From Planctomycetota bacterium (lineage in GTDB: Bacteria > Planctomycetota > UBA1135 > UBA2386), in assembly GCA_965228735.1 (NCBI GenBank), contig OZ245838.1:7129929-7193928 (forward strand): a stretch of 64,000 bases of DNA, written 5' to 3'. Below the pieces are notes generated by a model, which worked only from the letters and a program-made list of their open reading frames with translations, made no database searches and had not been told where the DNA came from. This document shows, one piece after another, positions 29,151 through 53,801 of this stretch (positions are counted from its first letter, which is position 1; each line of letters starts with the position of its first letter). The position numbers and the translations under genes were made by a program.

Positions 29151-29362
29151 GTCGGACATGGTAGCCGGGTGCCGGCGCAGCGCCGACCGCCTTCGGCGTG
29201 CCGTGTCGGAGCAAGCGATGGCGGGGTTGTTGTCAGCCGACCGACATCGGGAGCGCAACCGCCTGGCGCGATCACCCAGCGGGCGTTCGGTTGCACCGTG
29301 AACGCTCGACTGGGGCCGAGGAGCGACTCGGGGCGCGGTCACGATGACCGGCGTCCGCGCAC

Positions 29363-29453
29363 AAGAACGCCCCGCGGCTCTCAACCGCGAGGCGTTCTCA
29401 TCCGCATCATCTGCGGCGACTGGCTCCCGAGAGCGGTCGTGGATGCGAAGTTC
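29363..29453. repeat. ~90-bp structured repeat, copy 1
   Basis: Shares the 46-bp core aaccgcgaggcgttctcatccgcatcatctgcggcgactggctccc with copies 2 and 3. Confidence 0.95.
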
Positions 29454-29558: not shown

Positions 29559-29807
29559 ATGACCGACTCCCTCATCGAGCTGCGACTGCGGCGAGTGGGC
29601 AACTCCCTGGGCGTCATCTTGCCCAGGGAGGCGCTCGAGGCCCTCGGCGTCGACGCCAAGGAAGGGGCAAAGCTGGCGCTCGTCCGGTTGCCCGACGGCA
29701 GCGGGCTCGAGCTGCGCCACGAGGACGCGAAGTTCGAGCGCAAGCTCGCCCTGCTGCGCGACACGATGCAGAAGTACAAGAACACGCTCCGGTCGCTGGC
29801 GAAGTGA
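29559..29807 (+). CDS. AbrB/MazE-fold antitoxin
   Basis: LRRVGNSLGVILP; overlaps the start of doc. Confidence 0.9.
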   Translation: MTDSLIELRLRRVGNSLGVILPREALEALGVDAKEGAKLALVRLPDGSGLELRHEDAKFERKLALLRDTMQKYKNTLRSLAK

Positions 29808-30187
29808 CCGCCGAGCCGGAGTGGATCGAGCTGGCAGATGCCCTGCTGTTCCACGGCCGGTTGATCGCGGTGTTCGGCGGCGCCTCGGGCATCAGTGACA
29901 AGGGACTGCTCGAGTCGGCGCTGAGTCGCCCACGAAACCTGTTCGGCTACGGTACGACCGATCACTTCGAACTGGCTGCCGCGTATGCGCACGGCATCGT
30001 CCAGAATCACCCGTTCGTGGACGGCAACAAGCGAGCGGCCTTCGTGATTGCGCGTGTCTTCCTCGGCATCAACGAGCTTGCGTTCGATCCGCCGGAGGAG
30101 GAAGCGGTCGTCATGGTGGAGGGGCTTGCGGCGGGTGAGGTGTCGCAGGCGCTGTTCGCCGAATGGCTGCGGAAGCACACCAAGTAG
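29804..30187 (+). CDS. doc: Doc (death-on-curing, Fic-fold) toxin
   Basis: HPFVDGNKR motif; GLLESALSRP. Confidence 0.92.
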   Translation: MTAEPEWIELADALLFHGRLIAVFGGASGISDKGLLESALSRPRNLFGYGTTDHFELAAAYAHGIVQNHPFVDGNKRAAFVIARVFLGINELAFDPPEEEAVVMVEGLAAGEVSQALFAEWLRKHTK

Positions 30188-30244
30188 TCGGGGCGGCCTC
30201 GTCATGGTATTGCGATCGCCGTCTGCGTCTGGCAAGACGCCACC

Positions 30245-30491
30245 GTGTCCGACCTGCTGCCGCTTCGCCTCCTGCTGCTTGCCTTCGCCGGCCTCGTCAA
30301 CCGCGATCAGGCCCGTCTGCTTGCCTACACTCTCGAAGAGAACCGTATCCTGCGCGAGCAGATCGGTTCACGCCGACTTGCACCTGACCGCGGAGCAGCG
30401 CCGCCGATTGGCCAGGCTCGGGAAGGCGCTCGGTCGCAAGGTGCTGAGCCGGGTCGCGACGATCGTCACGCCCGACACCATCCTGAGGTGG
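30245..30491 (+). pseudogene. Frameshifted, truncated N-terminus of an integrase-core transposase
   Basis: YTLEENRILREQ then, in another frame, LTAEQRRRLARLGKALGRKVL..IVTPDTILRW; cut by the IS21 end. Confidence 0.7.
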
Positions 30492-31030
30492 TGTCATGGA
30501 CCGCCCTATGAGAGCCACTCCGGTTCGGCCAAGCGGAGCCACCTCCAGTTCGGCCAAGCGGAGCCAGGGCAGTTCGGCGAAGCGGAGCCACCCTGGTTCG
30601 GCCAAGCGGAGCCAGCCGAGTTCGGTCGGGCCGGAAGTCAGATCTGAAACTGGGTGAGCCCCCTGCCGCCCGGGATCCTCGCGGGAATCACCAAACCCCC
30701 AAGAGGACCAGATGGGCTTCAGGAGGCTCTCGATGCATCGTCTACAAGATCTCGTTCGACTTCACCGTCAAGGTCAGCCAAACCGCGCAATCTCGCGCTT
30801 GTTGCGCATGGGGCGCAACACGGTCGCCCGCTACCGCAGTGCGCTACTGGCTGCAGGTCTGCTGGACGGCAACACCGAGGAGCTGCCGGGCATGGAGGAG
30901 CTGCGCGCGGCCGTGGACACGCACGCGCCATCGGCACTGCCCCCGCAGCAGCGGTCCTCGATCGAGCGTTGGCTGCCGATCATCGACGAGAAGCATGCGG
31001 CTGGCGTGAAGCCGACCGCGATCTACCGGT
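30492..31030 (+). mobile_element. IS21-family remnant (left end plus istA 5' fragment)
   Basis: TGTCA terminus; 19-bp subterminal repeats; HTH MHRLQDLVRLHRQG..AISRLLRMGRNTVARY, then homology is lost. Confidence 0.75.
30523..30614 (+). repeat. Four 19-bp repeats GTTCGGC(C/G)AAGCGGAGCCA at 24-25 bp period (transposase binding sites)
   Basis: Copies start at 30523, 30548, 30572 and 30596. Confidence 0.9.
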
Positions 31031-31231
31031 GGTCAGCCGCTGGCAGTTTGCGAGCCGCAGAGCGATGCTCAGCAAGAGACGTTGCTGCGGGCTTGGAGGC
31101 AGGCCCAGGCCGGCGAGGGCCGCCGCGCCGACGACGTGCTCGACGATCTCGGGCGCAAGTGATTTCGTTCGTTGGCACCCGGCGAGTCCGCCCGCTTGCG
31201 GAAGCACCGGCGAGGGGTAATCTTGCCCTTC

Positions 31232-31459
31232 ATGTCCTGGACCGACCGCATCACGATCGAGCCCGGCAAGCGTGGCGGCAAGCCGTGCATTCGCGGGCTT
31301 CGCATCACCGTGTCGGACATCCTCGAGTACCTCGCATCAGGCATGTCGGAAGACGAGATCCTCGCCGACTTCCCCGACCTGGAGCGCGCTGACATCCGCG
31401 CGGCCCTCGCGTTCGCGGCGGAGCGGGAGCGACGGCTCGTGGAAGTCCGGCCCGCGTGA
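31232..31459 (+). CDS. DUF433 antitoxin-like protein
   Basis: RGGKPCIRGLRITVSDIL..EILADFPDL; TAATCT box 8 nt before the ATG. Confidence 0.9.
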   Translation: MSWTDRITIEPGKRGGKPCIRGLRITVSDILEYLASGMSEDEILADFPDLERADIRAALAFAAERERRLVEVRPA

Positions 31460-31660
31460 AACTCCTGTTCGACGAGAACCTCGCCCCGCGGCTCGCCGTG
31501 GGGTTGCAGGACCTGTTTCCCGAATCGCAGCACGTCCGCGATGCCGGACTTGCCGGTGCCTCGGATGCCGAGGTGTGGGACTACGCCAAGACACGAGGGT
31601 TCGCGATCGTGTCGAAGGACTCTGACTTCCAGCGCATCCATCGCCTGCGAGCCCTCACGT
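31456..31660 (+). pseudogene. DUF5615 PIN-like toxin, C-terminally truncated
   Basis: MKLLFDENL..ASDAEVWDYA..IVSKDSDF, then reads into the antisense strand of the convergent gene. Confidence 0.7.
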
Positions 31661-31674
31661 TTCCGCAAGCGGCG

Positions 31675-32592
31675 CTAAGTTTGAACTACGACGCCGTTCG
31701 TCCCAATGAACGTGCCGCCACTGATCGCGATGCCTTGCGTGTAGAACGTCAGGCCCGGGATCGGAGGAAAGGTCGCCTCGAAGTCGACGAACTTGCGGTT
31801 GTTTGGTCCGTCGAGGAGCGGCACTCCGAGGATGAACTGGGGCTGTACGAGTAACGGACAGGCGAAGCTGGGCAACTGGACGTTCCACTGCGTGTCGCCG
31901 CCCATAAGCCAGGCGAACGTCGCGTCGCTGGGTAGGGAAGCCACGAACACTCGGTCGAACGTTGCGTCGCCGTGCTGACAGCCCAGTTCACCGGCGCAGT
32001 TGGGACCGAACACGGGCTCCAGGTTTGGCTCGACGAAATCGAGGACGATGGCCGAACTCACGGCGGAGGCGCCCGAGGAAGGGGAGCTCGCAGAGTCGAT
32101 CGTCCAACGCACTTCCGTGCCGCGGCGATCGCAAAGCACCGGGAGCGTCGTTTGCGGCGTCGATGTGAGCCCGGATGCGCTGTGCTCCAGGATTCCGTCA
32201 GCTCCGACGTCGATCTCGGATTGCGCACCGACTGCGAGAGGCGATAGCCAGAGGTTGTAGTCCACCTGCACGTCGAACTCGAGGTGAACGCGGCTTGGTG
32301 CTGGCGCGGTCACGACAGTGGTCAGCGATGTGCGCGCCGCAGTGTAGAAGTGGTGCAGTTGCGACGCGCGCTGTCGTGCCTCCAAGCGGTTGCCTGCCCG
32401 ATCGAGACTAATCACTCCGAGATAGACGAAGCTCGGAAATGTCACGGGTCCGGGCGGAAGGTAGTGGTACTGGCCCGAGCCCTCCGACGTGAAGTACCAG
32501 GTGGCCTGAGGCGCGTTGCGAGTATCGAGTTGCAAGCCTTGCGCCGGCAAGCTGGCGAGTGACATCGATACCGCGATAAGCGAGTTCCGCAT
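31675..32592 (-). CDS. Secreted protein with the shared C-terminal domain
   Basis: Signal peptide ending PAQ; ends FPPIPGLTFYTQG..TNGVVVQT. Confidence 0.75.
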   Translation of the reverse strand: MRNSLIAVSMSLASLPAQGLQLDTRNAPQATWYFTSEGSGQYHYLPPGPVTFPSFVYLGVISLDRAGNRLEARQRASQLHHFYTAARTSLTTVVTAPAPSRVHLEFDVQVDYNLWLSPLAVGAQSEIDVGADGILEHSASGLTSTPQTTLPVLCDRRGTEVRWTIDSASSPSSGASAVSSAIVLDFVEPNLEPVFGPNCAGELGCQHGDATFDRVFVASLPSDATFAWLMGGDTQWNVQLPSFACPLLVQPQFILGVPLLDGPNNRKFVDFEATFPPIPGLTFYTQGIAISGGTFIGTNGVVVQT

Positions 32593-32643
32593 TCGTCAGA
32601 TTCTACAGGCAATGTGACGTGCGTTCTCTCTCATGGCGCCGGG

Positions 32644-34677
32644 TTAGCGAGGCGGAAGGACGATGGTTTGCTCCGAGACTTCGTTCGCCCGAATGACGAC
32701 ATCCACGATGGCGGTCTTGCGCCCATTGGCGGTGACGAAGAGGCGTTGCGCACCAAGCCTCAACCCGTGGAAAGTGGTCATGTCGTCCTCGACGAGATCG
32801 AATACCTGATCGCCGATGATGACCGTCGCGCTTTCGATTGGCGCGCCGGCATCGTCCTTTGCCGCGAGTCGGATCCGGCCGCTGGGAATACGCAACTGCC
32901 ACGGGCCGGCGCCCTGTAGTGGGAACCGCTGCGTCAGGTGGCGCGCCGTCAGGTCGTCGGACTCCGGCGGATACACGACCAGCGTGTCGCTGGCGCGTGC
33001 GTCGATACCGAGCCAGCCGCCGAGATCGTCGAGCGGAACCGTGTCCGGTGTCTCGCGCACGTTCTGCCAACCCGGGCGCAAGAGCGCGGCCTCGAGCCAG
33101 GCGCAAGGCTTGCCGTCGGCGAAGGTGACGCTCACGTTGGGCTTTGTGCCGAGTCGAATCGTCCCGACGTCGACCACGACATCGACGCCGCGCGGTGGCA
33201 GGACAACGGGTAGCAGGCGTGCCCACTCGCTGCCGTCGAGCGGACGGACGACGAGGATCGAGAGGCCTTCCAGCGTCGTGGGAAGCGAGAAGGCGCCGTC
33301 GGTCTGCAGTTCCGCGTCGAACTCATCGTTCTCAGGGTGCACGCAATCGCGATGGCCGCGCCACGACCGCAGGCCCACTCGCGATGCCACTGGTTCGCCG
33401 TTCGCGTCGACGACCTGGCCTTCGACTCGGCTCGGAGGGAACGGGTGGAGGCGTATCGGGGCCGCAGCCAACGCCTCGGCCTGGGTGAGGCGGAAGGGGC
33501 GGCGAGCTTCACCGAGCTCGAACGTGAGTGAGCCCGGCGGTAACGCGATCGGAAGCCCGAGCCGGATTTCCTCCGAGATGTCGCGGACGCCGCTGGCGGA
33601 CCAGAGCGCCACCTCGATCGGCGGGTCGCCGGCGACGCGGACCAGGATCTCGGTCGACGCCGCGTTCGTCTCTTCCTGCGCTGCGGCTGGTGCACTCTCA
33701 CGTGGTGCCGTTGGGCGGGCCACGAACTGCTCGGGATCCTGATCTGGTTCGGGAAGGCGCAGGACGAACGGTTCGGCTGCCGGGCGCTCGAACCACACGC
33801 GTTGTCGGCCGTGGACGACAACGAGGTTGTTGGCAACTTCGGGGCCGAACAGCGCGAACGAACCGTCACGCTTTGTTCGGGTCCAGGGACCTCGGTGGTC
33901 GCCCGAATCGCACCCGACGTAGGCGTCGCGAACCGCTGTTCCTGCCGCATCGAGAACGCGACCGATGGCTGGTTTGCCGGGTGGTGTTCGGAACGTCAAC
34001 GGCGGCTCGTCGGGATGCCACGTCGCATCATCGAAGTAGCCGAGTGCGAGCGCGGGGTGCTCGAGGTAGATGTCGCCGATGCCGTCGTGCGGGTCGACTC
34101 CGGTCAGGGTGACGAGGCCAGTCGCGTCGGTGCGACCCCAGGCCAGATCCGGGGTATGCCCACAACCGCCGCAGAACCCGACGAGCACGTTGGGGACCGG
34201 CTCATGGCGCCAGTCGAGGATCCTGACTGGAACCGGGATCGCGGGGGCGAGGGCCGTGATGCCTTGATCGACGGATCCCATGCTGACCGTCGCGGCGTAG
34301 CCGGGTGCGCGAACGATCGTCCAGCCCCAGGGTCGGTAGTTCGGAGCCCGCTCATCGCATCGCAGTCTCACGAAGCCGTCGGCGTCCGCCGTCGCGCGCA
34401 TCGAGAACCAGAACTCACCGCGAAGTGGCGTCGGGCTTTCCGCATCGAGCAACAACTCTGCCGTCGGAACCGGGGCCCCCGTCATGCCATCGACGACCCT
34501 CGTGACCAGCCACGATTGGTCGTTCGTGTAGACGCGGCCGTCCCAGCCGGTCGGATACATCTTGGGCGTGATCGATACTTGTGCAGCTACCGCCGTCGTG
34601 AGCGCGAGTAGGCAGACCGCTGCTGAAGGGAGCGAGCTCGCAAGGCTCTGGGCTCGTGGGGCGCAGCGGTTCGGCAT
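32644..34677 (-). CDS. Secreted protein with carboxypeptidase-regulatory-like repeats
   Basis: GRVLDAAG.AV and EGQVVDANGEPV..TD..G.F repeats; a CGGCGH motif. Confidence 0.7.
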   Translation of the reverse strand: MPNRCAPRAQSLASSLPSAAVCLLALTTAVAAQVSITPKMYPTGWDGRVYTNDQSWLVTRVVDGMTGAPVPTAELLLDAESPTPLRGEFWFSMRATADADGFVRLRCDERAPNYRPWGWTIVRAPGYAATVSMGSVDQGITALAPAIPVPVRILDWRHEPVPNVLVGFCGGCGHTPDLAWGRTDATGLVTLTGVDPHDGIGDIYLEHPALALGYFDDATWHPDEPPLTFRTPPGKPAIGRVLDAAGTAVRDAYVGCDSGDHRGPWTRTKRDGSFALFGPEVANNLVVVHGRQRVWFERPAAEPFVLRLPEPDQDPEQFVARPTAPRESAPAAAQEETNAASTEILVRVAGDPPIEVALWSASGVRDISEEIRLGLPIALPPGSLTFELGEARRPFRLTQAEALAAAPIRLHPFPPSRVEGQVVDANGEPVASRVGLRSWRGHRDCVHPENDEFDAELQTDGAFSLPTTLEGLSILVVRPLDGSEWARLLPVVLPPRGVDVVVDVGTIRLGTKPNVSVTFADGKPCAWLEAALLRPGWQNVRETPDTVPLDDLGGWLGIDARASDTLVVYPPESDDLTARHLTQRFPLQGAGPWQLRIPSGRIRLAAKDDAGAPIESATVIIGDQVFDLVEDDMTTFHGLRLGAQRLFVTANGRKTAIVDVVIRANEVSEQTIVLPPR

Positions 34678-34889
34678 CGTGTCATGGTAGCGAAGCTGCT
34701 CAGGCTCGACTGTTAACCAGAATCCGAGCTCTCTCCCCGTCCGCAGAGAGCATCCGCCCTGGTGCCACTCAGGCCGACCCCGTTCCCGGGTGGGGACCCG
34801 CAGCACCCCGGTCTCGCGAACACCCGCCCCAAGCCCAGCGACCGCCCACAACCGCCCCCGACACCCCCGCCTACGCCACTCCCCGCTCC

Positions 34890-34984
34890 AAAAGAAAACG
34901 CCCCGCGGCTGCTAACCGCGAGGCGTTCTCATCCGCATCATCTGCGGCGACTGGCTCCCCAGAGCGGGCGTGGATGCGAACTTC
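34890..34984. repeat. ~90-bp structured repeat, copy 2 (terminator-like on the minus strand)
   Basis: Same core; hairpin GAAAACGCCCCGCGG/CCGCGAGGCGTTCTC with a T-rich tail on the minus strand, shortly downstream of the selenoprotein gene stop. Confidence 0.95.
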
Positions 34985-34997
34985 GGGGCCGTAGGGC

Positions 34998-35900
34998 TCA
35001 CTTCTTCTGGTCGTCCGGGACGAACAGTTTGGTCCATCGCGAGCCTTGGAACTCCTTCGCGGTTCGGGAGCGCAGGTCCGTGGCCGCGCCGCCGCGCGTC
35101 TCGACGGCACGGATGCGGTTGAGACGACCGAGGGCCTTGATGCCGAGCTTGGCCGCGTCGGCTTCCGGCTCTCGGGCGAACGCACCCGCGAGCGTCCGCA
35201 GGCGTTTGATCTCCGGAGTCAGGTCGGCGCCCTTGGCGGCGGCTTCGAACACGGACGCGAACTGGGCTTCGGCCCAGTCTCGAGCCTTCTTCGTCGCGGC
35301 AACGATCAGGTCGCGTTCTTCGCAGCGGCCAAACGTGTCATCGGCCGTCTTGGCGGCCTTGAGCACGGCCCGCCAGTCTTGCTTCTCCGCGGCCTTCTGC
35401 GCCTCGGTGGCGAGCTTGGCGAGGCGTTTGCGGAGTTCCGGAGGTGCGTCGAGCTTGCCGAGCTTCTCGACTTTGTCGAGCATCTCCGCGAACTGCACGC
35501 GGGAAACCCCGCCCGAGTAGCCGGTGACCCATTCGCCCTCGTGCGTGAGGATGGCAACGAAGGGCAGGCTGGTCGCTCCCGCCAGGTTCGCGTCCATGAT
35601 GCCCGCAACGTCGGAGTCCGGATCGTCACAGTCAGCCGCCAGGCCGACCGCGAGATCGCCGATTCGCCCGTGCACGGGAGCGACGCCGAGGATGCCCTCC
35701 ACGAGGGCACGGCACATGCCTCAAGCCTGGCGGCCGTACTCGACGAGCACGAACTTCTGCTGCTTCCTTGCGGCCGCCTGCGCGTCCGCCAGCTTCTTGT
35801 GCCACTGCAGGGCGCCGTTGTCGGCGAAATGCGGATGACCTTGCGCTGGCGCCTGGGCGATGAGTGATGCCAGAGCGATCGTGAGGATGGGCTTGAGCAT
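34998..35900 (-). CDS. Secreted thioredoxin-fold selenoprotein (UxxC), 300 aa by UGA read-through
   Basis: Track ORFs 35721-35915 and 34998-35717 are in frame, joined by TGA at 35721-35723: FVLVEYGRQA-U-GMC; a hairpin follows; later SLPFV (cis-Pro-like). Confidence 0.8.
35685..35713 (-). promoter_or_regulatory. Candidate bacterial SECIS element
   Basis: GCCG-UGCCCUC-(GUG)-GAGGGCA-uccu-CGGC; the apical loop starts with G, 18 nt after the UGA. Confidence 0.6.
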
Positions 35901-36075
35901 GGCTACCTCTTCCATGTTGGGAAGAGTAGGGCAACTCGCCGAGTTAGGCTAGTCGCGTGCAGTCGTTGGAGGTGCAGTCGGTCGGCGGCGTGAGGGGTTG
36001 TCGTCGGTTGCTGATCTGGCCGACGCACGGGCTCTTGCGGCCGGGGTGACCGTCAACCAGAATCCGAGTGCCGAC

Positions 36076-36290
36076 ATCCTCGCTGACTTCCCCGACCTGG
36101 AGCGCGCTGACATCCACGCGGCCCTCGCGTACGCGACGGAGCGGGAGCGACGGTCTGTGGAAGTCCCGCCCGCGTGAAGCTCCTGTTCGACGAGAATCTG
36201 GCGCCGCGGCCCGCCGCGGCATTGCAGGACCTGTTTCCCGAATCGCAGCACGTCCGCGATGCCGGACGTGCCGTCGCTTCGGACGCGCAG
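36076..36290 (+). pseudogene. Degenerate second copy of the DUF433/DUF5615 junction
   Basis: Diverged direct repeat of ~31358-31572. Confidence 0.85.
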
Positions 36291-36291
36291 A

Positions 36292-37773
36292 TCAGTTGAA
36301 GATCGGCAGCTCGGTGACGCGGCCGACGAAGAAGTTGTCGTTCGAGTCGATCCAGCCAGCCTGCAGGTAGAGGTTCTGCGCCACGAAGGCCGGCGAGGTC
36401 GGCACTTGCAGCGTGATGGTCTGCGAGGCGTTGAATGGGAAGCCGATGCCGGCGACGATCACCGGGTCGGTGAGCACGGGGTTGTCGAGGTAGGCGCCCG
36501 GCGTGTTGGTGCGAGAGAACGAGGCGCCGAGGGCCCAGATCTGGTCGAGCACGTTGAAGTGGGCGTCGACCTCGAACGAGAAGCTCTGGCCAGGCGCCGC
36601 GGCGACGACTCGGTCGTGAATCGAGACCTCGCGCTCCATACCGGTGCGGTAGAAGCTGAGCGGGTCGTTGGGACCCTGCCCGAAGAAGAAGATGGTCGGG
36701 TCGAGCTCGTTCGGCTGAGCGTTCGGATCCTGCTGGACGAACGGTGGGATGGAGTAGACGAACAGCTCCAACGGGGTCAGGACCGTGTAGGCGCCACCCG
36801 GTTCGGTGGTGAGACCGTCCCGCACGTGCATTACCGACGCGCTGCGTTCGGGGGTGCCGGCGACGATCTGTCGAGTGATGAACGACAGCCATTGACGGTC
36901 GCCGCTGACCTCCAGCGTTTCTACATCCACACCGATCGTGAGGTCACGGATCGCGAGCGGGTTGTTGCGGTTGAAGCGCACGATCTTGTGGATCGAGGGC
37001 GTCGCGTTGTTCGACATGCGCGCGACCAGATACTGCGTGTCGATCCACTTCAGGTCGGTCATCGTGTGATTGGCCGGCACGTTGAAGCTCACGACGCCGC
37101 CCGGAACGCTGCCGTTGAAGTTCACGAACGAGACCTGCTGACCGGTCGTGCCGTTGCTGAGGAACGCGATCTGCGATAGCGAGCCGTTGTCGATCACGGT
37201 CAACGGTTCAGTCGCGGCCGGGCCCGAGGTGGGGGTGAGTCGAGGCGGGTTGCCCGCGATCCCGCTGCGGCCGGTGTAGAAGAGGTTGCCGACGGAGTTG
37301 CCCGGCTGCGTGTTGGCGCGCCGCAGGAAGAACGTGTTGTTGCCGGTGCGCACGCCCTCGACGCGCCAGCTCTCGTTGGTCGCGAACGACAAGGTCGGCA
37401 GCTGAGTCGCTCCGCCGACGAGGTATCGTTCGACGAGCACGGCGTTGCCATTGACGTCGTTCTGCACATCGTAGGTCGTGGTCGGCGTCGCCGTGCTGCG
37501 TTCCCAGATGATCGAATCGACCGAGCCGGCGGCGAACGGGTCGATGATCTGCACGAAGGTCGGGTTGCCGCCGGTCGCGAGGTCGAAGTAGCCGTAGGCG
37601 CCGTTCGTCGCGCGCAGTAGAACCCGCAAGCCGGCGTCGCCGAAGCCGAACGAGGTCCCGCCCTGCGAGGTGAGGTTGTTGACGGTGAATGGGGTCAGAT
37701 ACTGCGCCGCCAGTGGGCTGCAGCAGGCGAGGGCGAACGCCGTAGCGGCGATCGAAGGAAGTCGTGTAGTCAT
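36292..37773 (-). CDS. Secreted beta-rich protein with the shared C-terminal domain
   Basis: Signal peptide ending AAQ; ends LQVPTSPAFVAQNLYLQAGW. Confidence 0.8.
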   Translation of the reverse strand: MTTRLPSIAATAFALACCSPLAAQYLTPFTVNNLTSQGGTSFGFGDAGLRVLLRATNGAYGYFDLATGGNPTFVQIIDPFAAGSVDSIIWERSTATPTTTYDVQNDVNGNAVLVERYLVGGATQLPTLSFATNESWRVEGVRTGNNTFFLRRANTQPGNSVGNLFYTGRSGIAGNPPRLTPTSGPAATEPLTVIDNGSLSQIAFLSNGTTGQQVSFVNFNGSVPGGVVSFNVPANHTMTDLKWIDTQYLVARMSNNATPSIHKIVRFNRNNPLAIRDLTIGVDVETLEVSGDRQWLSFITRQIVAGTPERSASVMHVRDGLTTEPGGAYTVLTPLELFVYSIPPFVQQDPNAQPNELDPTIFFFGQGPNDPLSFYRTGMEREVSIHDRVVAAAPGQSFSFEVDAHFNVLDQIWALGASFSRTNTPGAYLDNPVLTDPVIVAGIGFPFNASQTITLQVPTSPAFVAQNLYLQAGWIDSNDNFFVGRVTELPIFN

Positions 37774-38195
37774 CTCTGTCGTGGGTTCGTTGTCGAGCCG
37801 TCGAACGCGGAGGTCGCGAGACGGGATGACGTTGGTGTCTCGGGGCGTCGCGGCGGCTGGCGCAGTCCTCGGATTTTCGCGAACGGCTGCGTCGTCGTTG
37901 CTGTTCGTGCCGCAGCGCTTCGCCCGCGCCCATCGCCGTGGCGCGCGAACTCGGTCTACACGAATGCGAACGGGCCGCGCGTCGGAGGCGACGCCGTCGA
38001 TCCTGACAACGGAACCGCGATAGTCGCGGCCGCTCTGGTCGAGCGACCGCCTGTGTCAGGCTCCGCCGGGAATCGAGGTGACGGTCCCACTCCCTTCGAG
38101 TCGGATCCGTTGCCTCGTCCCCGTTTCAACGCATTGCGGACGATCACCTCGATCCGTTCGCCGATCGAGGTGCGATCGTCAGCGCGGCGCGCTTG

Positions 38196-41100
38196 TTACC
38201 AGCCGACCGTGATATCGAGAACCTGGCCGCTCGGCCGGATCTGCAGGGTGCCGCTGACATCCGACACCAGCATCGCCTGCTGGAAGTAGCGGGTCCCGAG
38301 CACGCTCGCGGACAGCGGCAGCGGGATGTCGATCGCGATCGCGCTCTCCTGCAACGAGGGACCGAAGAAGTAGGTGCCCGAGGTGCTGCTGCCGGGCTTG
38401 TTGATGCTCCAGCAGGCGGGGGTGCCGGAGGAGGTCTGGAGGCTGCCGAAGGCCTGCTCGGTGCTAGAGAAGTCCGACACGATCACGGCCGAGTTCCAGT
38501 TGAGACCCGGCCCCTGCTCGGCGCCTTCGATGACGAGCGAGTAGGTGCGGCCCGGCATGGCGTCGCCGAGCGCGCGCAGGCGTGGCATGCCCTGCGTCAT
38601 CGTCAGCGTCGGGATGCCCGACGGACTCGAGTAAGCGCCGCGCGTTACCGACAGGTCGTAGTAGAGCGACCCGACGTTCCACATCGGACAGCCGGACAGT
38701 GGCCACGCAGCGCGGTAGGCCGCCCACGTGTTGCCGCCGACGGAGGTGCTCGGCACCGGACCGAACGGCACCGCGGCGGGCGTGCCCGGCGGCCGCGGCA
38801 TGAAGATCGCCATCTCGGGCGTCGCCGTGAATACGAGGAAGCGTGGGCCGTTGCCGCCCGAGATGGCGGCGAACTCGGCGCGGGCGACGCCCGCGTCGGC
38901 GTCGATCACCAGTGTCGAGTCCCAGCTCGTGCCGTTGTTGTCCGGCTGCCAGACGACGCCGGAACCAGGCGAGGCGCAGCCGGGGCTGGAGCCCGCGCTG
39001 GTGGACGTCCCGACCTGCAGGCTGCACGGGATGCTCATATTGCGGGCGAAGCGGCCGCGCACCTCGAGCGTGATGGCGTTGTCCGTCACGAACGCGGTCT
39101 CTTGAGCGAAGGCGAGTGCGATTTCACGCCTGCTGGTGATCGGCTCTGGATCGAGCGTCACGCCGGCGGGCAACGTCGAACTCGTCGAGCTAGGGGTCGT
39201 TTGGGCGACGTCGCACGGCGGCGCGCTGAGGCTGGTGATCGTGGCTACGGCGGCGTTCGGACCGGGAGTCACCGGGCCGAGGCGAGTCGCCGCGAAGCCG
39301 ACGTCGATCGACGTCGGTGCCGGCGTTCCTGCCTCGGCGCGGTTGACGAAGGCGACGACGTTGATCGTCTCGTTGGCGGTAGCGACGAACTCGGCCCGTT
39401 CCCACGTGCGGTTGCCAAAGGTGTCGGCCGGGTTGACGAGCGAACGCGCGGTGAGGATCTGGCCGCTCACCGAGCCGAACAGCATGAGGTCGATGTCGGC
39501 CCAGACCGGCTGGCCTGCGACCAGGCCTGGGTTGAGGTTGGTGCGGAACCAGGTCAGGACGACCGCGTGCCTTTCACCGGCGGTGACTGGGAACGATGCG
39601 ACCATCGGACGCAGGCCCGTCGTGTTTCCGATCGACACCACGTTGTGCGTCGTGGCGGCGTCGGTCAGCGGGTCGTTGGTCAGTCGATCCGTGCGCAGGA
39701 AACCTGCGCCCTTCTCGTTGTCGCCGGCGCCATCGGCGTTGCCGTTGACTGCGGTCGCCAGCATCATCGCCTTGGCCTCGAGCACGGTGGTGACGGTCGG
39801 CGCGCCACCGTCGCGGCCGTTCATCATCAGCGTCGCGGCGCCAGCGACGATCGCGCCCGAGATCGAGGTGCCCTCGACCCGCGTCGACGTGCTCTCGTTG
39901 AGGTGCACCGCTGCCGTCACCTGGCTGGCGACTGCGGCGATATCCGGATACTCCCGTCGGTAGGCGTCGCCGGCGCCCGTCACGTTCGGCATCCGCCACT
40001 GCGAGTCGTTCCAGGCGGCAAAGCCGATCGAGCACGGCACGCTGGTGCGCGCATTGGTCAGCGGACCGGTGCCGGTGCCCGGCCAGAGCGGATGCGCGTC
40101 GGTCGCCGACGGGGCGCGGCCGGTGCCGCCGACGCACAGGCCGTTGCACTGATTGAAAGCCTCGTACGGGTTCTGGCTGAAGTCGTCGTAGTTGCCGGTC
40201 GGCGTGACTACGAGGATGTCGGCGTCACGCGCGAGCTGATCGACGGTGAGTGCGAGCGGGTGATCGGGGTTGGTGGGACCGCCGAACGACAGGCAGGCGA
40301 CGCGGACGGCCGCGCCGGCGGCGGTCGGGTTGTTGAGCAGCCAGTTGAGGCCAGCCAGCGTGTCTGACGTCTGGGCGAAGTAGCCGACGTCGTTGTAGAG
40401 CACACCTCCGCAGTTGTAGTAGGTGTCCCAATACTGCGTGATGTTGACGCCGACGATCGAGGCGCCGGGGGCCTGGCCGTCGGTCAACGGCTCGGTCGTC
40501 GGCTGGTTGCATGCCGCACCCGCCGCGAAAGCCGCCATGCCGGTGCCGTGATCGACGCCCCAGGGCTTGTTCGGAATCGCCAAGGTCGGCGTCCACGGCG
40601 TGCCGCTCGGCACCGAGTTGTTCTGCAGCAGGACGCGGCTCGGATTGGCGGTGTCGCCGCCCTCGAACAGCGTCTGGTGCGCGCGCTGAGTGCCGCCATA
40701 GTCGTCGACCAGCCAGTAGTCGAGCACTGCGAGCAGAGCAGCGCCGTTGGCGCCGGTGTAGCCGAGCTTGTGGGCGATGTTCGCGGCGTGGTGCTCGGGC
40801 GCGAGCAGGTCGCCGTCGCTCGGCGCGAATGCTCGCAGCTGGGCCCGGTGCACGGCATCACGCGCGACGCAGGCGATCGCCGGGTGCAACTTCAGGGCTT
40901 CGACGCGGGCGTCGGGCAGCTCCAGCACCAGCGTGTTGATCTGCGGCAGGTGACGGATGATGCGGGCGCCGATGCCGTCGAGATGATCGCCGATCGCCGC
41001 CACCTTCTCGTTGTAGCGTTGCGCCCGTTGCCGCTTCTCTTCGTGGCGCAGCTCGAGGCTCTGCTGGGGCGTGAGGCCGCGGTGTCGCGCGTGGAACGGC

Positions 41101-41537: not shown

Positions 41538-41631
41538 AAAAGAAACGCCCCGCGGCTGCTAACCGCGAGGCGTTCTCATCCGCATCATCTGCGGCGACTG
41601 GCTCCCCAGGGCGTTTGTAGATGCGAACTTC
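41538..41631. repeat. ~90-bp structured repeat, copy 3
   Basis: Same 46-bp core. Confidence 0.95.
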
Positions 41632-41821: not shown

Positions 41822-43824
41822 GTGTGTCCTGAACGCCAATCCTCACCCGAGGTGAGGCGATGCTGTGTCGAACCAGCGGGTGCGAGTCCCGTCGCGGTAA
41901 GCGCCGAGCGCCGCGTAGCAGGCTCCAGCCGTCGCGAGAGATCGCGCCGGCCACAGCGGAGCGTCGAAAGCCCGCGTCGGGGTGTATGCCCCAGACGGGG
42001 GGAGCAAAGTCGCAGGCCCAATCCGAAAGGGTGAACCTTGCAGCCTCGTGAGAGTAGAGACCCGAAAGGTGGGAAGGCCGAGCCGATCATGTCGCGGCGA
42101 AGGCAACAGACTGCGTCCGAGTACGGAGCGGCGCAGGACTTCCCCGGGGTAGGGAGGAGGGCATGCGACGAAGGCTCGACACGGACCAGGAGAGGCCCTA
42201 CCCAGCAGCCGACGTCAGGCGAAGCGCGCGTCCATAAGCCGAGTGCGAAAGGACGCCGTGCTGGGAGGGAGTCCGAGGGGTTCGTAGTACCGACGAAGCC
42301 GGCGGCCACAACGCCGGCAGAGGGAAGGGGCCCTGCTTTGGTCGCGCGCGTGTCTGGGGGTAAGTGCGAGGGCATGGCCGCAAGGCCCAACAACCCCGTA
42401 GACAAAGTACGAGAACTCCAACACGCGCTCTTTCGTGCCGCCAAGCGCAACCCAGGGCGGCGTTTCCACGCGCTATCTGATCGGATCTGCCGGGGTGACG
42501 TCCTGCAGAGGGCGTGGAAGCGAGTGCGGAGCAATGGTGGAGCTGCCGGCATCGATGGCTTGTCGCTGTCGATGATCGAGCAGCGGGGCGTCGAGCACTT
42601 CCTCGCGGAGGTGTGCGACGAGATCGGGTCCGGGCGCTACCGACCGCAGCCGGTGCGGCGCGTGTGGATCCCGAAGCCGGACGGCAGGCAGCGACCGTTG
42701 GGCATCCCGACGGTCAAGGATCGGGTGGTGCAGATGGCGGCGAAGCTCGTGATCGAGCCGATCTTCGAGGCTGGTTTCGAAGCGTGCAGCTATGGCTTCC
42801 GTCCTCGACGGAGTGCCACGGACGCACTGGAGAAATTGCGCATCGAAGGCGGGCGAGGTTGCCGCTTCGTCGTCGACGGCGACATCCAGAGCTTCTTCGG
42901 CACGATCGACAAGGTCGTGCTGATGGATCTGGTGAGCCGGCGAATCTGCGATCGCCGCGTGCTGAAGCTGCTGCGGAAGTGGCTGGACGCAGGCGTGATG
43001 GAGGAAGGCAATGTGAAGCACGATGCCACGGGCACTCCCCAGGGCGGCGTGATCTCGTCGTTGCTCGCCAACATCTACCTGCACGAACTCGATCGCGAGT
43101 GGCAGCGCGACTGCCAGCATCTCGGCGTCCTGGTGCGATACGCGGACGATTTCGTGGTGCTGTGCAAGAGCGAGTCGCAAGCGAACGAGGCGATGCGACG
43201 GCTGCGCGCGATCTTCGCGCGGTTGAAGCTCACGCTGCATCCGGAGAAGACGAAGCTCGTGCAGATCGGGCTCGGCAAGGACGGCTTCGACTTCCTCGGC
43301 TGTCACCTGCGGATCGTGAAGTCCCACTTCAAAGGGCGCACGTATCTGTTTCGGTGGCCGTCGGTGAAGTCGAAGAAGGCGGTCCGCAGCCGGGTGCGCG
43401 AACTGACGGACCGCCGCCACCGTGCTGGTCTGAAGGACGTCGACGAGGTGATCGCTGACCTCAACCCCGTGCTGAAGGGCTGGGGGAACTACTTCAAGAC
43501 CGGCAACGCGAGCAAGCAGTTCAACCAGATCGACTACTACGTCTGGCGGCGCATCACGCGCATGCTTGGCAAGCAGCGTGGCTTTCATGGTCATCGGCTT
43601 GCCTGGCGCGTGGCGCACCAACGGGCTGCGTGGCCGCTGGAGAAGCTGCGTGAGCGTGGCCTGCACAAGCTGCTCGGCACGATCCAATACCCAGGGAGCA
43701 AGACGGCATGAACAAGACCATCGGTCAGCCGTGTGCGGGAAAACCGCATGCACGGTTGGAAAGGGGGGCTTGGTTGCTGCGGGCTTGCTTCTTCAACAAG
43801 GTCCAGTAACCAAGCTCTACCAAT
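41822..43824 (+). mobile_element. Group II intron
   Basis: 5' GTGTG; domain V agccgtgtgcgggaaaaccgcatgcacggtt; domain VI with bulged A ending ctctAccaat; internal RT ORF. Confidence 0.92.
42374..43711 (+). CDS. ltrA: Group II intron reverse transcriptase/maturase (no endonuclease domain)
   Basis: RPLGIPTVKDR, SYGFRP, GTPQGG, YADD, domain X LNPVLKGWGNYF. Confidence 0.95.
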   Translation: MAARPNNPVDKVRELQHALFRAAKRNPGRRFHALSDRICRGDVLQRAWKRVRSNGGAAGIDGLSLSMIEQRGVEHFLAEVCDEIGSGRYRPQPVRRVWIPKPDGRQRPLGIPTVKDRVVQMAAKLVIEPIFEAGFEACSYGFRPRRSATDALEKLRIEGGRGCRFVVDGDIQSFFGTIDKVVLMDLVSRRICDRRVLKLLRKWLDAGVMEEGNVKHDATGTPQGGVISSLLANIYLHELDREWQRDCQHLGVLVRYADDFVVLCKSESQANEAMRRLRAIFARLKLTLHPEKTKLVQIGLGKDGFDFLGCHLRIVKSHFKGRTYLFRWPSVKSKKAVRSRVRELTDRRHRAGLKDVDEVIADLNPVLKGWGNYFKTGNASKQFNQIDYYVWRRITRMLGKQRGFHGHRLAWRVAHQRAAWPLEKLRERGLHKLLGTIQYPGSKTA

Positions 43825-45068
43825 GCGCAATCTGCTCCTGGCAGCAACTCTGGTTCTTGTCGTTGTGGTCGTTTGGCTCTGTGTGGAAGCGGGCGCGGGC
43901 GTCACCAACGGCCCGCTGCCGGGGGGGGGGGCAGAATCCGGGGCATAGTCGCGAGGATGTTGGGGGGGCGGCGCCTTCGCTGTCTGACGAATCCGGCAGC
44001 GGAGTGCGTGACCGCGCGCCTGTCATCCCGGGTCCGTCCGCCAAGCGGGCCCGATCGGCCACCGTGCGAGTCGTTGTGGTTGATGAAGTTGACAAGCTGC
44101 CCGTCAAGGACATACCCGTCATCCTGCGGCGCGCTTCTGGAACCCCAGTCACCTTCCTTGGTTCAACTGGAGACGGGGGGGATGTCGAGTTCGCGGCCGT
44201 TCCGCACGGGACTTATCGGCTCGTGGAGCCGAAGCGAACTGAAGCACCGATCCGCGAGTTGCAAGGTCTTGGTAATGCGTCGCGGACGTACGACTGGAAG
44301 GTCGAGGCTTCGCCTTATCACGATAAGGTGATCGAAGTTGTTGACGAGTCGGGGGCGCCCGTCGGGCAAGCTCAGCTTTGGGTGGACAGCGAGGTGCCCG
44401 TGCGTATCGGGTGTACCGATGCTTCTGGCCGCGCGAGCTTGCGCATGCAAGCCAACTCGCCTGGGCTGACCGTTCGGCGGCTTGGTTTCAAGGTTCGCAG
44501 GCTTGTGCCTTCGGCTCTGGGGCAGCGGGAGTTGTCAGTGTCCTTGGAGCGCGGAGGTGCCGCGATTTCGGGGCGACTCATGGGCGGGGGCGGCCTGCGC
44601 GGAAAGTCCGTGCAGGTGACTCTCTTGTCGTTGAGTAGCCTGCCGCCAAAGGTAGTTGCAGTGCAGAGTATCCCGCTTGGTCAAGTATTCGAGTTCGTTG
44701 GCCTTGAGGCAGGAGACTACCGCGTGATTGCCACAGTCGATTCTCTGGCGGCGGCGACGACGGAGGCGGCCTGTGCGGAGCGCGGTCTGACTGCTTGCGA
44801 CCTATTTGTTGCTCCTGTGGAGCCACTGATGGGATCGGTGGCGGGGCCCGATGGTCGCCCGATCGCAGGGGCTTTCGTTACGATCTACCTCGGTGGCCAC
44901 TCGGCCGCAGAGTGTCGAACTGGTGAGGATGGTCGCTTTGTCGTGTCGGGCTTGCCGTTGGCGCCGCTGCGGGTCTTCGCGGCGATCGCTGGGACGGATC
45001 GCTGTGGGAGCACCGATGTTGTTCGGTCCAAGGCGTGTGGCAAAGCCGTGCAGGTTGTTGTTCCGTGA
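43823..45068 (+). pseudogene. Carboxypeptidase-regulatory-like membrane protein frameshifted at a G11 tract
   Basis: MRNLLLAATLVLVVVVVWL.. joins GGGQNPGHSRED...VVVP* if G11 (43921-43931) is read as G10. Confidence 0.7.
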
Positions 45069-45172
45069 TAGCCTGTCGCCCACGCCGAAACCCCTGCACA
45101 CCGTAGCCGTTAATCCCGGCACCAAAGTCATCGCTCTCCTCAACCCCGGCAGAGAGCCGGAAAGGCAGACCG

Positions 45173-46642
45173 ATGACCGATTCGCAGAGACCAGAAGACA
45201 ACGCTGACCAGCCGACCATTCCGATCGGGCCCGAGCCGACCTCGCAGTTCCCGCTGACGCCGCAGGCGCCCGGGATCGGCGGCGGAGAGGAGACGCACGG
45301 CGAAGCCGGGCGACTCCTCGGAGCCGGCGATCCCGGGCGGGCGCCAACCCCCTCGACGACAGGCGACCTGCCGCCCGAGCTCGCAGGCCGTCGTCGCTCG
45401 CGCACGCGCCGCCGTGTCGTGCCGCAACCGCGTCAGCATTTCAGCGCCCGCGAGCGCCTGCTGATCCTGGACACCTGGCAGCGCTCGAAGCTGCCGGCAA
45501 AGGACTTCGCTGCGCTCGTCGGAGTGTCGCCGCATTCGCTCTACAAGTGGCGCAGCCGCTTCCAGGAGGAAGGGCCGGCGGGCCTCGAGGATCGCCCGAA
45601 GGGCCCCGGGCCCGGCAGCCGCCTGTCGGACGAGACGAAGCGCGCGATCCTGATGATGAAGCAGGCGCATCCCGAGTGGGGCCAGGATCGCCTGCACTCG
45701 ATGCTCATGCGCACGCAGGGCCTCGCTGCGAGCCCAGGTGCGATCGGTCGCTACCTGGAGGAAGAGGGCTACGTCGTCGAGGACGTGCCGACGAAGCCGC
45801 ACCCGGACAAGCCACGACGCTTCGAGCGCAGCAAGCCGAACCAGATGTGGCAGACGGACCTGTTCACCTTCGTCTTGAAGCGTCAGAACCGACGTGTGCA
45901 CCTGGTCGGCTTTCTCGACGACTACAGCCGCTACCTCGTCGGCTTCGGACTGCACGCGAGCAGCTCCGGTGCGATGGTGCGCGAGGCGCTGGAGTCGGCG
46001 ATCGCCAACTACGGTGCGCCCGACGAAGTGCTGACCGACAACGGGACGCAGTACAAGACCTGGCGCGGCAAGAGCGCCTTCACCAAGTTGCTCGAGCGTC
46101 GCGGGATCAAGCAGATCGTCGCCAGCCCGCGGCATCCGCAGACGCTGGGCAAGATCGAGCGCTTCTGGGGGACGCTGTGGCGCGAGTGCGTGCAGCAGGC
46201 AGTGTTTCGCGATCTCGACGACGCGCGTGATCGCATTCGTCAGTTCGTCGATCACTACAACTTCCAGCGCACGCATTCGGGGATCGACGGCATGGTGCCG
46301 GCGGATCGCTACTTCGAATCAGCGCCGCAGGTGCTGGAGACGCTGCGCGAGCAGGTGAAGGCCAACGCCAAAGAACTCGCGCAGAACGGCGCACCGCGCA
46401 AGACCTTCTACCTGACGGGTCGAGTCGGTGACTCCAACATCTCGCTGCATGCCGAGGGCGAGCGGGTCGTGCTGACGAAGGAGGACGGCAGTCGCGAAGA
46501 GGTCGACCTCGGCGCGACCGGCCGGCGGGCCGAAGTCGGGAGCGAATCTGACGTCGAAGGGCCCGGCGAGTCTCCCCTCGATGCCGCTCTGCAGGACCTG
46601 TCCGACGGTCTCGATTCGGAGACCGGGGAGGACGACTCGTGA
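45173..46642 (+). CDS. IS481-like DDE transposase
   Basis: HTH; WQTD, LTDNGTQY, GKIERF. Confidence 0.9.
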   Translation: MTDSQRPEDNADQPTIPIGPEPTSQFPLTPQAPGIGGGEETHGEAGRLLGAGDPGRAPTPSTTGDLPPELAGRRRSRTRRRVVPQPRQHFSARERLLILDTWQRSKLPAKDFAALVGVSPHSLYKWRSRFQEEGPAGLEDRPKGPGPGSRLSDETKRAILMMKQAHPEWGQDRLHSMLMRTQGLAASPGAIGRYLEEEGYVVEDVPTKPHPDKPRRFERSKPNQMWQTDLFTFVLKRQNRRVHLVGFLDDYSRYLVGFGLHASSSGAMVREALESAIANYGAPDEVLTDNGTQYKTWRGKSAFTKLLERRGIKQIVASPRHPQTLGKIERFWGTLWRECVQQAVFRDLDDARDRIRQFVDHYNFQRTHSGIDGMVPADRYFESAPQVLETLREQVKANAKELAQNGAPRKTFYLTGRVGDSNISLHAEGERVVLTKEDGSREEVDLGATGRRAEVGSESDVEGPGESPLDAALQDLSDGLDSETGEDDS

Positions 46643-47169: not shown

Positions 47170-47170
47170 C

Positions 47171-48651: not shown

Positions 48652-48691
48652 TTGCTCAGCCAGGGTGTGCAGTGTTTGGCGGGGGCGTACA

Positions 48692-49787: not shown

Positions 49788-51704
<1,917 letters not shown>

Positions 51705-53800: not shown

Positions 53801-53801
53801 C

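What the first reader, a model, noticed from the sequence alone, without database searches (positions are those of the whole stretch)
34998..35900. Hidden UxxC selenoprotein split by ORF callers
Seen: a signal peptide and Trx-type start (WHKKLADAQAAARKQQKFVLVEYGRQA), then an in-frame TGA, then GMC and a long open frame. The TGA occupies the first position of a CxxC-type motif, and a G-loop hairpin lies 18 nt downstream. Known: bacterial Sec insertion uses UGA plus an adjacent SECIS, often in UxxC thioredoxin folds. Inference: an exported Sec-thioredoxin with a helical C-terminal domain, located in an accessory region.
Basis: partly seen in the sequence, partly recalled or inferred. Interest (0 to 1): 0.72.

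Follow-up and report, generated by a model that had tools for sequence, protein, structure and literature searches.

The report
Exported selenocysteine thioredoxin of Planctomycetota
Gene callers cut this gene in two at a TGA 'stop' codon, but relatives keep that TGA or a cysteine codon at the same place, with a co-varying RNA hairpin behind the TGA, so it very likely encodes one selenocysteine-containing, probably exported thioredoxin-like redox enzyme: an uncatalogued subfamily of a well-known kind of selenoprotein.

Summary
Observation confirmed, on the minus strand (35900 to 34998; TGA at 35723-35721, residue 60 of U-G-M-C). The genome has selA, selB, selD and tRNA-Sec(UCA). Of 60 loci covering the column, 43 have TGA and 17 a Cys codon; the hairpin fits bacterial SECIS rules in 43 of 43 versus 1 of 17, and covaries (22 double changes, 0 of 500 shuffles; Cys control none). 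Databases hold the gene as 59-aa and 239-aa pieces. The model shows a Trx7/DsbH-like domain (18-152) plus an unassigned helical domain; a third cysteine (C91) is kept in 50 of 51 family members and aligns weakly with CnoX Cys63. No NCBIfam model or entry in a 2026 inventory fits this family, but UxxC thioredoxins are the commonest selenoprotein type, and this scan has reported similar exported thioredoxin-plus-helical selenoproteins on other DNA. The gene ends beside a tRNA-Asn att-like scar and is patchy (7 of 72 family genomes). In passing: about 42 candidate selenoprotein genes in this oxidase-encoding genome. Selenium incorporation, export and activity are inferred. Real; new subfamily of a known kind; modest interest.

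The parts
34998..35900 (-). Whole gene, 300 codons plus TGA stop, read through one in-frame TGA
   Evidence: full-length homology across the TGA
35844..35900 (-). Predicted Sec-pathway signal peptide, residues 1-19 (K3, hydrophobic core, A-P-A cleavage motif; no twin-arginine or lipobox seen)
   Evidence: sequence; heuristic met in 30 of 32 full-length TGA forms; cleavage site inferred
35901..35914 (-). SD-like GAGG 5 nt before the ATG at 35900
35721..35723 (-). In-frame TGA = selenocysteine 60, first position of UxxC (inferred)
   Evidence: 43 TGA, 17 TGY at this column
35712..35714 (-). Cys63, resolving position of UxxC
   Evidence: Cys in 53 of 54 rows
35692..35710 (-). bSECIS-like hairpin, 8 pairs, loop GUG at 35702-35700, 18 nt after the UGA; codes for R-A-L-V-E-G-I
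35445..35843 (-). Thioredoxin-like domain (Trx7/DsbH type), residues 20-152, starting with the family motif H-P-H-F
35628..35630 (-). Cys91 in AADCD after the second strand; conserved third cysteine
   Evidence: 50 of 51 family rows; aligns with E. coli CnoX Cys63 at low probability
35562..35564 (-). Pro113 in LPFV, the expected cis-proline loop of the thioredoxin fold (cis state inferred)
   Evidence: invariant in alignment A1
35001..35444 (-). All-helical C-terminal domain, residues 153-300, with G-R-C193 and terminal R-W-x-x-x-F motifs; no clear structural match
34891..34984 (-). att-like 94-nt repeat (3' end of tRNA-Asn plus its downstream terminator-like region) beginning 14 nt after the stop codon; context, not part of the gene

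Best explanation
This is one gene whose in-frame UGA is very likely read as selenocysteine, giving a probably exported thioredoxin-fold enzyme with a U60-G-M-C63 active site that is predicted to reduce or reshuffle disulfides of envelope proteins. Shown: open frame on both sides, complete selA/selB/selD/tRNA-Sec set, TGA-or-Cys column, covarying hairpin at fixed spacing, thioredoxin-like model plus helical domain. Inferred steps: (1) SelB loaded with Sec-tRNA binds the GU-loop hairpin 18 nt downstream and decodes the UGA; without selenium, translation would stop and give only a 59-aa stub; (2) the N-terminal signal peptide sends the unfolded chain through the Sec translocon and is cut after A19; (3) the Sec60 selenolate attacks a disulfide or oxidised cysteine of a client, Cys63 resolves it, and the selenenyl-sulfide is re-reduced by a membrane electron donor (a large protein with a C-terminal UxxC DsbH-like domain at C1:4263499 is a candidate by layout only); (4) the helical domain probably binds or selects clients. 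The client is unknown; the gene has no conserved neighbours among Sec forms.
For: Machinery: SelA E 1.2e-109, tRNA-Sec 76.6 bits over the 47 cut-off with UCA anticodon, SelB 336.6 bits over cut-off, SelD with its own TGA. SelB in 15 of 15 and SelA in 14 of 15 genome handles carrying the TGA form (two handles are one genome). Column 60: 43 TGA, 16 TGC, 1 TGT in 60 loci, no other codon (32 distinct TGA sequences); Cys in 111 of 114 database proteins covering it, and 34 of 159 database homologues start just after it, as truncation at a TGA would give. All 8 full-length matches in the own family carry exactly one TGA. Covariation on 32 distinct TGA sequences: 95.3% paired, 22 cells changed on both sides, score 0.334, 0 of 500 shuffles, best slid control 0.075; RNAalifold finds the same helix unaided; 14 Cys sequences: 54.5% paired, 221 of 500 shuffles as high. 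Some double changes alter the protein (A-L-V-E-R, -E-G, -E-S). AlphaFold2 pLDDT 94 with U60/C63 at the start of the helix after strand 50-56; Z 14.1, rmsd 3.0 A over 133 residues to a DsbH-type domain (3ira), Z 13.0 to an exported Bacteroides DsbD-type domain.
Against: No protein, selenium or RNA data (no RNA holder listed). The hairpin alone is not significant. The structure counted was derived from these sequences and kin are not independent. The signal peptide call is a heuristic. The protein itself scores 19.9 bits on PF13899, under the 27-bit cut-off. Genomes with Cys forms also carry sel genes (7 of 8 SelB, 8 of 8 SelA), so machinery does not discriminate the forms. Reductase versus isomerase versus oxidase cannot be told from sequence.
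Confidence: 0.8

Rival explanations
1. Same selenoprotein, but it works like an exported chaperedoxin: the UxxC site reduces, the third cysteine C91 traps oxidised clients as mixed disulfides as Cys63 of CnoX does, and the helical domain holds unfolded clients.
For: The three top Foldseek rows for the whole model are Salmonella and E. coli YbbN/CnoX (E about 2e-5). hhalign puts C91 on CnoX Cys63 (AADCD with KLDCD) and runs on into the first helices of its TPR part, 123 columns, against 22 columns for plain TrxA. C91 is kept in 50 of 51 family rows, also in single-domain forms and in forms lacking C193, so it is not simply a structural partner of C193 (26 of 32 full-length TGA forms). Arrays of Cys paralogues lie next to groEL, with or without groES, in 6 loci of related genomes (names read from the sequence by recall). 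CnoX features from PMC8129009 (first part of the text) and PMC10998233 (passages).
Against: hhalign probability only 10.9%, BLASTP nothing; whole-chain fits to YbbN have rmsd 15-19 A and TM about 0.28; spacing C63-C91 is 27 residues, CnoX 24; CnoX works with cytoplasmic GroEL/DnaK whereas this protein has a predicted signal peptide; the groEL neighbours occur only in the Cys forms of kin, never beside a TGA form seen here. PMC10998233 reports that CxxC plus the third Cys (Pseudomonas YbbN) goes with no bleach-induced holdase activity.
Confidence: 0.15
2. UGA is a real stop or a nonsense mutation: two small genes or a pseudogene.
For: An ATG lies 3 nt after the TGA and gene callers annotate 59-aa and 239-aa proteins; the gene sits among toxin-antitoxin remnants and insertion-sequence-like genes.
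Against: The TGA is kept at the same column in sequences only 36-59% identical, never TAA or TAG; the Met after it is found only in this gene and its closest relative; the break would cut a thioredoxin domain at its active site; the hairpin covaries; no other stop or frameshift in 38 full-length TGA loci.
Confidence: 0.02
3. The UGA is read through as Cys or Trp (genome-wide code change or a special suppressor tRNA) instead of Sec.
For: None found; other tRNA-Sec-like Rfam matches exist but all 11 are under the cut-off.
Against: TGA ends this gene and 1860 long coding frames in the genome; the UCA tRNA found has tRNA-Sec structure; hairpin tracks TGA. A genome-wide tRNA scan timed out, so a second UCA tRNA is not excluded.
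Confidence: 0.03

Closest known systems
UxxC thioredoxin-fold bacterial selenoproteins in Table 1 of PMC13188914: thioredoxin (PF00085), thiol:disulfide interchange protein (PF13098), thiol-disulfide isomerase-like (cd02966), VPGUxxT (NF041383), HUIPC (NF047660), TsoB (NF045694)
   Same: Sec at the first position of the CxxC motif of a thioredoxin fold; adjacent bSECIS meeting all four rules quoted in that review (loop 3-9 nt, G first, spacer 16-37, at most -7.5 kcal/mol).
   Different: No NCBIfam model reaches its cut-off for this protein or for any of 64 aligned members (best E 8.7e-10); distinct motifs (HPHF, EYGRxxUGxC, GLAADCD, LPFV); extra helical domain and third cysteine. cd02966 and BSepDB sequences could not be searched.
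Trx7/PDZ domain-containing (seleno)protein, NF041199
   Same: Trx7-type N-terminal domain; 14 of 64 members match weakly.
   Different: 13.4 bits against a 300-bit cut-off over residues 32-68 only; no PDZ match in Pfam; listed motif is CxxU, here UxxC.
DsbH-like / DsbD-gamma-like thioredoxin domains (PF03190, PF13899; PDB 3ira, 7tkv, 3f9u, 2ju5)
   Same: Best structural matches of residues 18-152 (Z 12-14.4) and best sequence matches in the PDB.
   Different: Those use Cys; none has this helical C-terminal domain.
CnoX/YbbN chaperedoxin (PDB 3qou, 3qdn)
   Same: Thioredoxin domain followed by a helical domain, similar length; a cysteine in D-C-D after the second strand.
   Different: CnoX is cytoplasmic, uses Cys or Ser, and has a TPR domain; here Sec, a predicted signal peptide, a Trx7-type domain, and a helical part that does not superpose as a whole (rmsd 15-19 A).

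Membership tests
Bacterial selenoprotein gene (UGA-Sec) | In-frame UGA inside a continuous homologous frame | tested here: met
Bacterial selenoprotein gene (UGA-Sec) | selA, selB, selC, selD in the genome | tested here: met
   all over curated cut-offs
Bacterial selenoprotein gene (UGA-Sec) | Cys at the aligned column in homologues | tested here: met
   17 of 17 non-TGA loci; 111 of 114 database proteins
Bacterial selenoprotein gene (UGA-Sec) | bSECIS hairpin 16-37 nt downstream with G in the loop, conserved as a structure | tested here: met
   43 of 43 versus 1 of 17; covariation
Bacterial selenoprotein gene (UGA-Sec) | Selenium in the protein product | not testable with these tools
   needs 75Se labelling or mass spectrometry
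Thioredoxin-fold U/CxxC oxidoreductase (Trx7/DsbH-like) | Thioredoxin fold with the motif at the start of the helix after the first core strand | tested here: met
Thioredoxin-fold U/CxxC oxidoreductase (Trx7/DsbH-like) | Conserved proline of the cis-Pro loop | tested here: met
   P113 invariant and in all family rows; cis geometry itself not inspected
Thioredoxin-fold U/CxxC oxidoreductase (Trx7/DsbH-like) | PF13899 gathering score of 27 bits | tested here: inconclusive
   this protein 19.9 bits; its 47%-identical Cys orthologue P0005 32.4 bits
Thioredoxin-fold U/CxxC oxidoreductase (Trx7/DsbH-like) | Thiol-disulfide exchange activity | not testable with these tools
   bench assay
Trx7/PDZ selenoprotein NF041199 | Model score of 300 bits and a PDZ domain | tested here: not met
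   13.4 bits, residues 32-68; C-terminal part all-helical
CnoX/YbbN chaperedoxin | N-terminal thioredoxin domain | tested here: met
CnoX/YbbN chaperedoxin | Cys equivalent to E. coli Cys63 | tested here: inconclusive
   C91 aligns with it, probability 10.9%
CnoX/YbbN chaperedoxin | C-terminal TPR domain | tested here: inconclusive
   only generic helix-pair matches, Z at most 9 over about 60 residues, from a single-sequence model of pLDDT 72
CnoX/YbbN chaperedoxin | Cytoplasmic, no signal peptide | tested here: not met
   signal-peptide-like N-terminus in 30 of 32 full-length TGA forms (heuristic)
CnoX/YbbN chaperedoxin | Holdase activity and hand-over to GroEL/DnaK | not testable with these tools
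   bench assay

The most novel reading that the evidence does not exclude
The family is a selenium-armed, exported counterpart of the CnoX chaperedoxin: a periplasmic UxxC reductase with a third trapping cysteine and a client-holding helical arm, moved between Planctomycetota on tRNA-Asn cassettes, and one of some 40-50 mostly unannotated selenoproteins with which an oxygen-respiring planctomycete runs its envelope redox chemistry, against the published view that aerobes rarely keep selenoproteins.
Probability: 0.15. Interest if true: 0.65.

Novelty: new variant of a known kind. Interest (0 to 1): 0.36.

Why it matters
It adds an uncatalogued, widespread selenoprotein subfamily (two-domain exported form in 8 of 73 genomes of the own family; a single-domain form without signal peptide in 83 of 115 genomes of a sister family, many with TGA) that databases split at the active site. 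The matched Sec and Cys orthologues, with at least three and probably more switches on the tree, and a short SECIS whose pairing forces amino-acid changes, make a clean system for studying Sec gain and loss. The recoding mechanism itself is textbook. The larger point is the host: about 42 candidate selenoprotein genes in a genome with haem-copper oxidases, close to the published top ten (46-63, PMC13326102 Table 2, which lists no Planctomycetota).

Tried and rejected
Rfam on window 30000-40000: 4 matches, all far under cut-off. The search for related loci with the single protein in genome contigs found nothing; the alignment query did. Folding the hairpin alone gave no signal. Exact-sequence cluster 1 is a chaining artefact through a 2671-aa record, not a family. 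Helical domain: no Foldseek match under E 0.001, best Z 9.0, no shared Pfam family among 64 members: neither TPR nor a new fold is shown. ESM Atlas gave Planctomycetota hypothetical and Trx7 clusters for the full Cys orthologue; the search with the helical part did not complete. No conserved neighbour among TGA forms. No tyrosine integrase among 24 genome matches lies in the window; serine recombinases were not searched. No promoter consensus near the gene. No RNA holder listed. Run X11 does not cover the TGA. The tree is a quick tree of 118 columns with 33 of 77 forks open; no order of events is claimed. Five literature searches listed no paper on this family; 'Planctomyc' occurs 0 times in the main texts of PMC13188914 and PMC13326102; the BSepDB website and supplement were not searched and may hold members under a broader thioredoxin label. 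No complex prediction was run: no partner is claimed.

Full report
Observation. The gene is on the minus strand. With TGA read as U, window 35900-35001 gives 300 residues with a single TGA, at residue 60 (35723-35721) in VEYGRQA-U-GMC; the stop is the TGA at 35000-34998. An SD-like GAGG precedes the ATG at 35900 by 5 nt. The hairpin GUGCCCUC-GUG-GAGGGCAU (35710-35692) has its loop 18 nt after the UGA. The exact 59-aa and 239-aa pieces are in the protein collection and the 300-aa product is not. Contigs from three runs of three studies span the codon with no difference; a fourth run, labelled coral metagenome, matches other parts of the gene but not the codon.

Machinery. The 7.19-Mb genome (93% complete) has SelA, SelB and SelD over their curated cut-offs, SelD with its own in-frame TGA, and one tRNA-Sec over the Rfam cut-off with a UCA anticodon. 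Of 23 genome handles tested, the 15 with the TGA form have SelB in 15 and SelA in 14; the 8 with only a Cys form have SelB in 7 and SelA in 8. So the machinery is necessary context and does not explain which form a genome has.

The column. I aligned the protein to 64 loci (L021-L084, including this gene and some duplicates); 60 cover residue 60. 43 have TGA (32 distinct 42-nt sequences), 16 TGC, 1 TGT; three of the Cys rows are generic thioredoxins. Among 159 database homologues, 114 cover the column: 111 Cys, 1 Ser, 2 Asp; 34 start at query positions 62-85, as truncation at a TGA would give, and 11 are later fragments. I did not check the DNA of most truncated records. In a profile search of 251 genomes of the order, the full-length form occurs in this genome and 7 of 72 others of its family, all 8 with exactly one TGA; a single-domain form occurs in 83 of 115 genomes of another family, many with TGA. 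18 of 20 named genome loci are titled Planctomycetota, Planctomycetia or Planctomycetaceae, 2 'uncultured bacterium'; the host's phylum is inferred from this.

The SECIS. The 2026 review PMC13188914 (sections 5, 7 parts 1-2, and 10 read) gives four rules for the bacterial element; this hairpin meets all. So do 14-18% of control positions here, and its z-score is -0.8, so one sequence proves nothing. Across relatives, 43 of 43 TGA loci pass at spacer 17-18 with a GU loop, against 1 of 17 Cys loci. On 32 distinct TGA sequences 95.3% of cells pair, 22 cells change on both sides, covariation score 0.334, 0 of 500 shuffles reach it and the best slid register gives 0.075; RNAalifold finds the same helix. 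On 14 Cys-form family sequences the same columns pair in 54.5%, indistinguishable from shuffles. Caveats: the structure was taken from these sequences, and kin share changes.

The protein. AlphaFold2 with 64 sequences gives pLDDT 94: low-confidence residues 1-20, a thioredoxin-like domain with U60/C63 at the start of the helix after strand 50-56 and LPFV (P113) before the next strand, then about seven helices. Residues 18-152 match DsbH/Trx7-type domains best (Z 14.4 to 7tkv, 14.1 to 3ira, rmsd 2.6-3.0 A). Pfam gives PF13899 below cut-off for this protein and above it for the Cys orthologue P0005. No NCBIfam model fits. The helical part, folded alone (pLDDT 72), matches only generic helix pairs. 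A simple hydrophobicity rule finds a signal-peptide-like N-terminus in 30 of 32 full-length TGA forms and 0 of 4 single-domain TGA forms. C91 (AADCD) is kept in 50 of 51 family rows; C193 in 26 of 32 full-length TGA forms and 1 of 9 full-length Cys forms.

Mechanism. Most likely SelB with Sec-tRNA reads the UGA through the hairpin, the chain is exported, and Sec60 with Cys63 acts as the nucleophile and resolving pair of a thiol-disulfide oxidoreductase for envelope proteins, the helical domain choosing or holding clients. This follows from general knowledge of UxxC thioredoxins and is untested here. The main rival keeps all of that and adds a chaperedoxin role: Foldseek's top whole-chain rows are YbbN/CnoX and C91 aligns with CnoX Cys63 over a 123-column alignment, against 22 columns for TrxA, but the probability is 10.9%, the whole-chain rmsd is 15-19 A and CnoX is cytoplasmic (PMC8129009, first third read; PMC10998233, passages read). 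A true stop is excluded by conservation at 36-59% identity without TAA or TAG and by the Met after the TGA being restricted to two genomes.

Evolution. On a quick tree of 80 thioredoxin-domain rows with the Sec column and the hairpin-coding residues masked, the Sec/Cys label needs 8 changes, at least 3 forced by well-supported branches; P0005 (Cys) sits inside a Sec group with support 96. Many forks are open and no direction is claimed.

Context. A 94-nt repeat begins 14 nt after the stop codon (34984-34891), with copies at 29360-29453 and 41538-41631. It is the last 8-9 nt of tRNA-Asn plus the sequence behind it; the intact tRNA-Asn is at C1:1689-1764, just across the contig end if the contig is circular. 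The three copies share a different upstream arm. This looks like tandem integration scars; the gene would be the last of a 6.6-kb module with a subtilase-family gene, a 493-aa unknown and DUF433/DUF5615 remnants. No tyrosine integrase lies in the window, the gene's GC (67%, third position 83%) is ordinary, and the closest relative has other neighbours. 'Accessory' is reasonable; active mobility is not shown.

Selenoproteome, in passing. A codon-usage scan listed 209 TGAs with coding-like frames on both sides. I picked 60 by eye and scanned them read through. A family model spans the TGA in 33 of 60: 31 TGAs in 29 genes of redox or metal-binding type, one FG-GAP repeat protein, and one Uma2 gene that I count as broken. 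With SelD and this gene that is 31 genes. Eleven more lack a specific model but share the TGA at one motif among paralogues or have UxxC or a hairpin, giving about 42; the other picks are mostly ordinary stops between genes. This is a rough lower bound, not a validated count. The genome has two strong COX1 matches. The review states that aerobic bacteria rarely retain selenoproteins; the BSepDB top ten run from 46 to 63 genes (PMC13326102, section 11 and passages read).

Novelty. UxxC thioredoxin-fold selenoproteins are the commonest kind, and the recoding is canonical. This family has no NCBIfam model and no matching row in Table 1 of the review as far as domain identifiers show; BSepDB and CDD could not be searched. 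The scan's look-up by sequence found no earlier report of it, but earlier notes describe other exported thioredoxin-plus-helical selenoproteins in Planctomycetota (unchecked).

Noticed in passing
G000 whole genome (L087-L146, L018): About 42 candidate selenoprotein genes (31 with a family model spanning the TGA or shown directly) in a genome with two strong COX1 matches; many are exported thioredoxin-fold proteins, and three genes carry two TGAs each. Near the published top ten (46-63).
   Followed up: partly
L096 (G000:C1:1762143, +): Cobalamin-independent methionine-synthase-like protein with an in-frame TGA in T-F-M-U and a hairpin 18 nt downstream; the Pfam match spans the TGA; 'methionine synthase' occurs 0 times in the 2026 review. 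Possible uncatalogued selenoprotein; homologues not checked.
   Followed up: partly
L105, L115, L127, L128 (C1:3484699, 4855623, 6929513, 7087946): Four paralogues with G-H-P-L-G-x-T-U at a thioredoxin-like active-site position; no Pfam or NCBIfam match.
   Followed up: partly
L091, L103, L123 (C1:406817, 3065085, 5872224); also L120: FG-GAP repeat proteins with a U-C pair before P-Q-F-V-D and the same AGUUC-loop hairpin 19 nt after the UGA; 'FG-GAP' occurs 0 times in the 2026 review. L120 has C-U in an FG-GAP protein.
   Followed up: partly
L100, L121 (C1:2546238, 5497385); L087/L088 (C1:2372, 2123): Two thioredoxin-like proteins with L-G-x-x-D-x-x-x-U (C-U in one), and a two-TGA protein of metal-binding-like layout next to tRNA-Asn; no family match.
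   Followed up: partly
window 29360-29453, 34891-34984, 41538-41631; tRNA-Asn at C1:1689-1764: Three att-like copies of the tRNA-Asn 3' end with its downstream terminator-like region and a shared foreign arm, dividing the region into modules of 5.5 and 6.6 kb without a tyrosine integrase; the arm also occurs in G001 away from a tRNA end.
   Followed up: partly
window 45073-48691 and 51704-55322: Exact 3.6-kb duplication 6631 bases apart holding a transposase-like gene; further insertion-sequence-like and reverse-transcriptase-like ORFs at 42572-62457 (labels recalled from sequence, not scanned).
   Followed up: no
window 29559-30184, 31172-31854, 35998-36296: MazE-like/Fic pair and two DUF433/DUF5615 pairs, the second a truncated 90%-identical copy just upstream of the selenoprotein gene.
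   Followed up: partly
L077, L078, L080, L081, L082, L084 (and L062): Tandem arrays of 2-3 exported Cys paralogues of this family, divergent from groEL (with groES in three) in related Planctomycetota genomes.
   Followed up: no
G045, G078 and family f10 (L024, L061, L063, L083): Single-domain 131-134-aa form without signal peptide, in 83 of 115 genomes of one family, using TGA with the same hairpin or Cys.
   Followed up: partly
P0014: A public 2671-aa record joins four neighbouring genes of this locus by splice-style gene calling and skips the 29 residues around the TGA: an annotation artefact that also corrupts a 90% identity cluster.
   Followed up: yes
window 30512-30614: Four short direct repeats of about 24-25 nt spacing behind an integrase-core-like fragment.
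   Followed up: no
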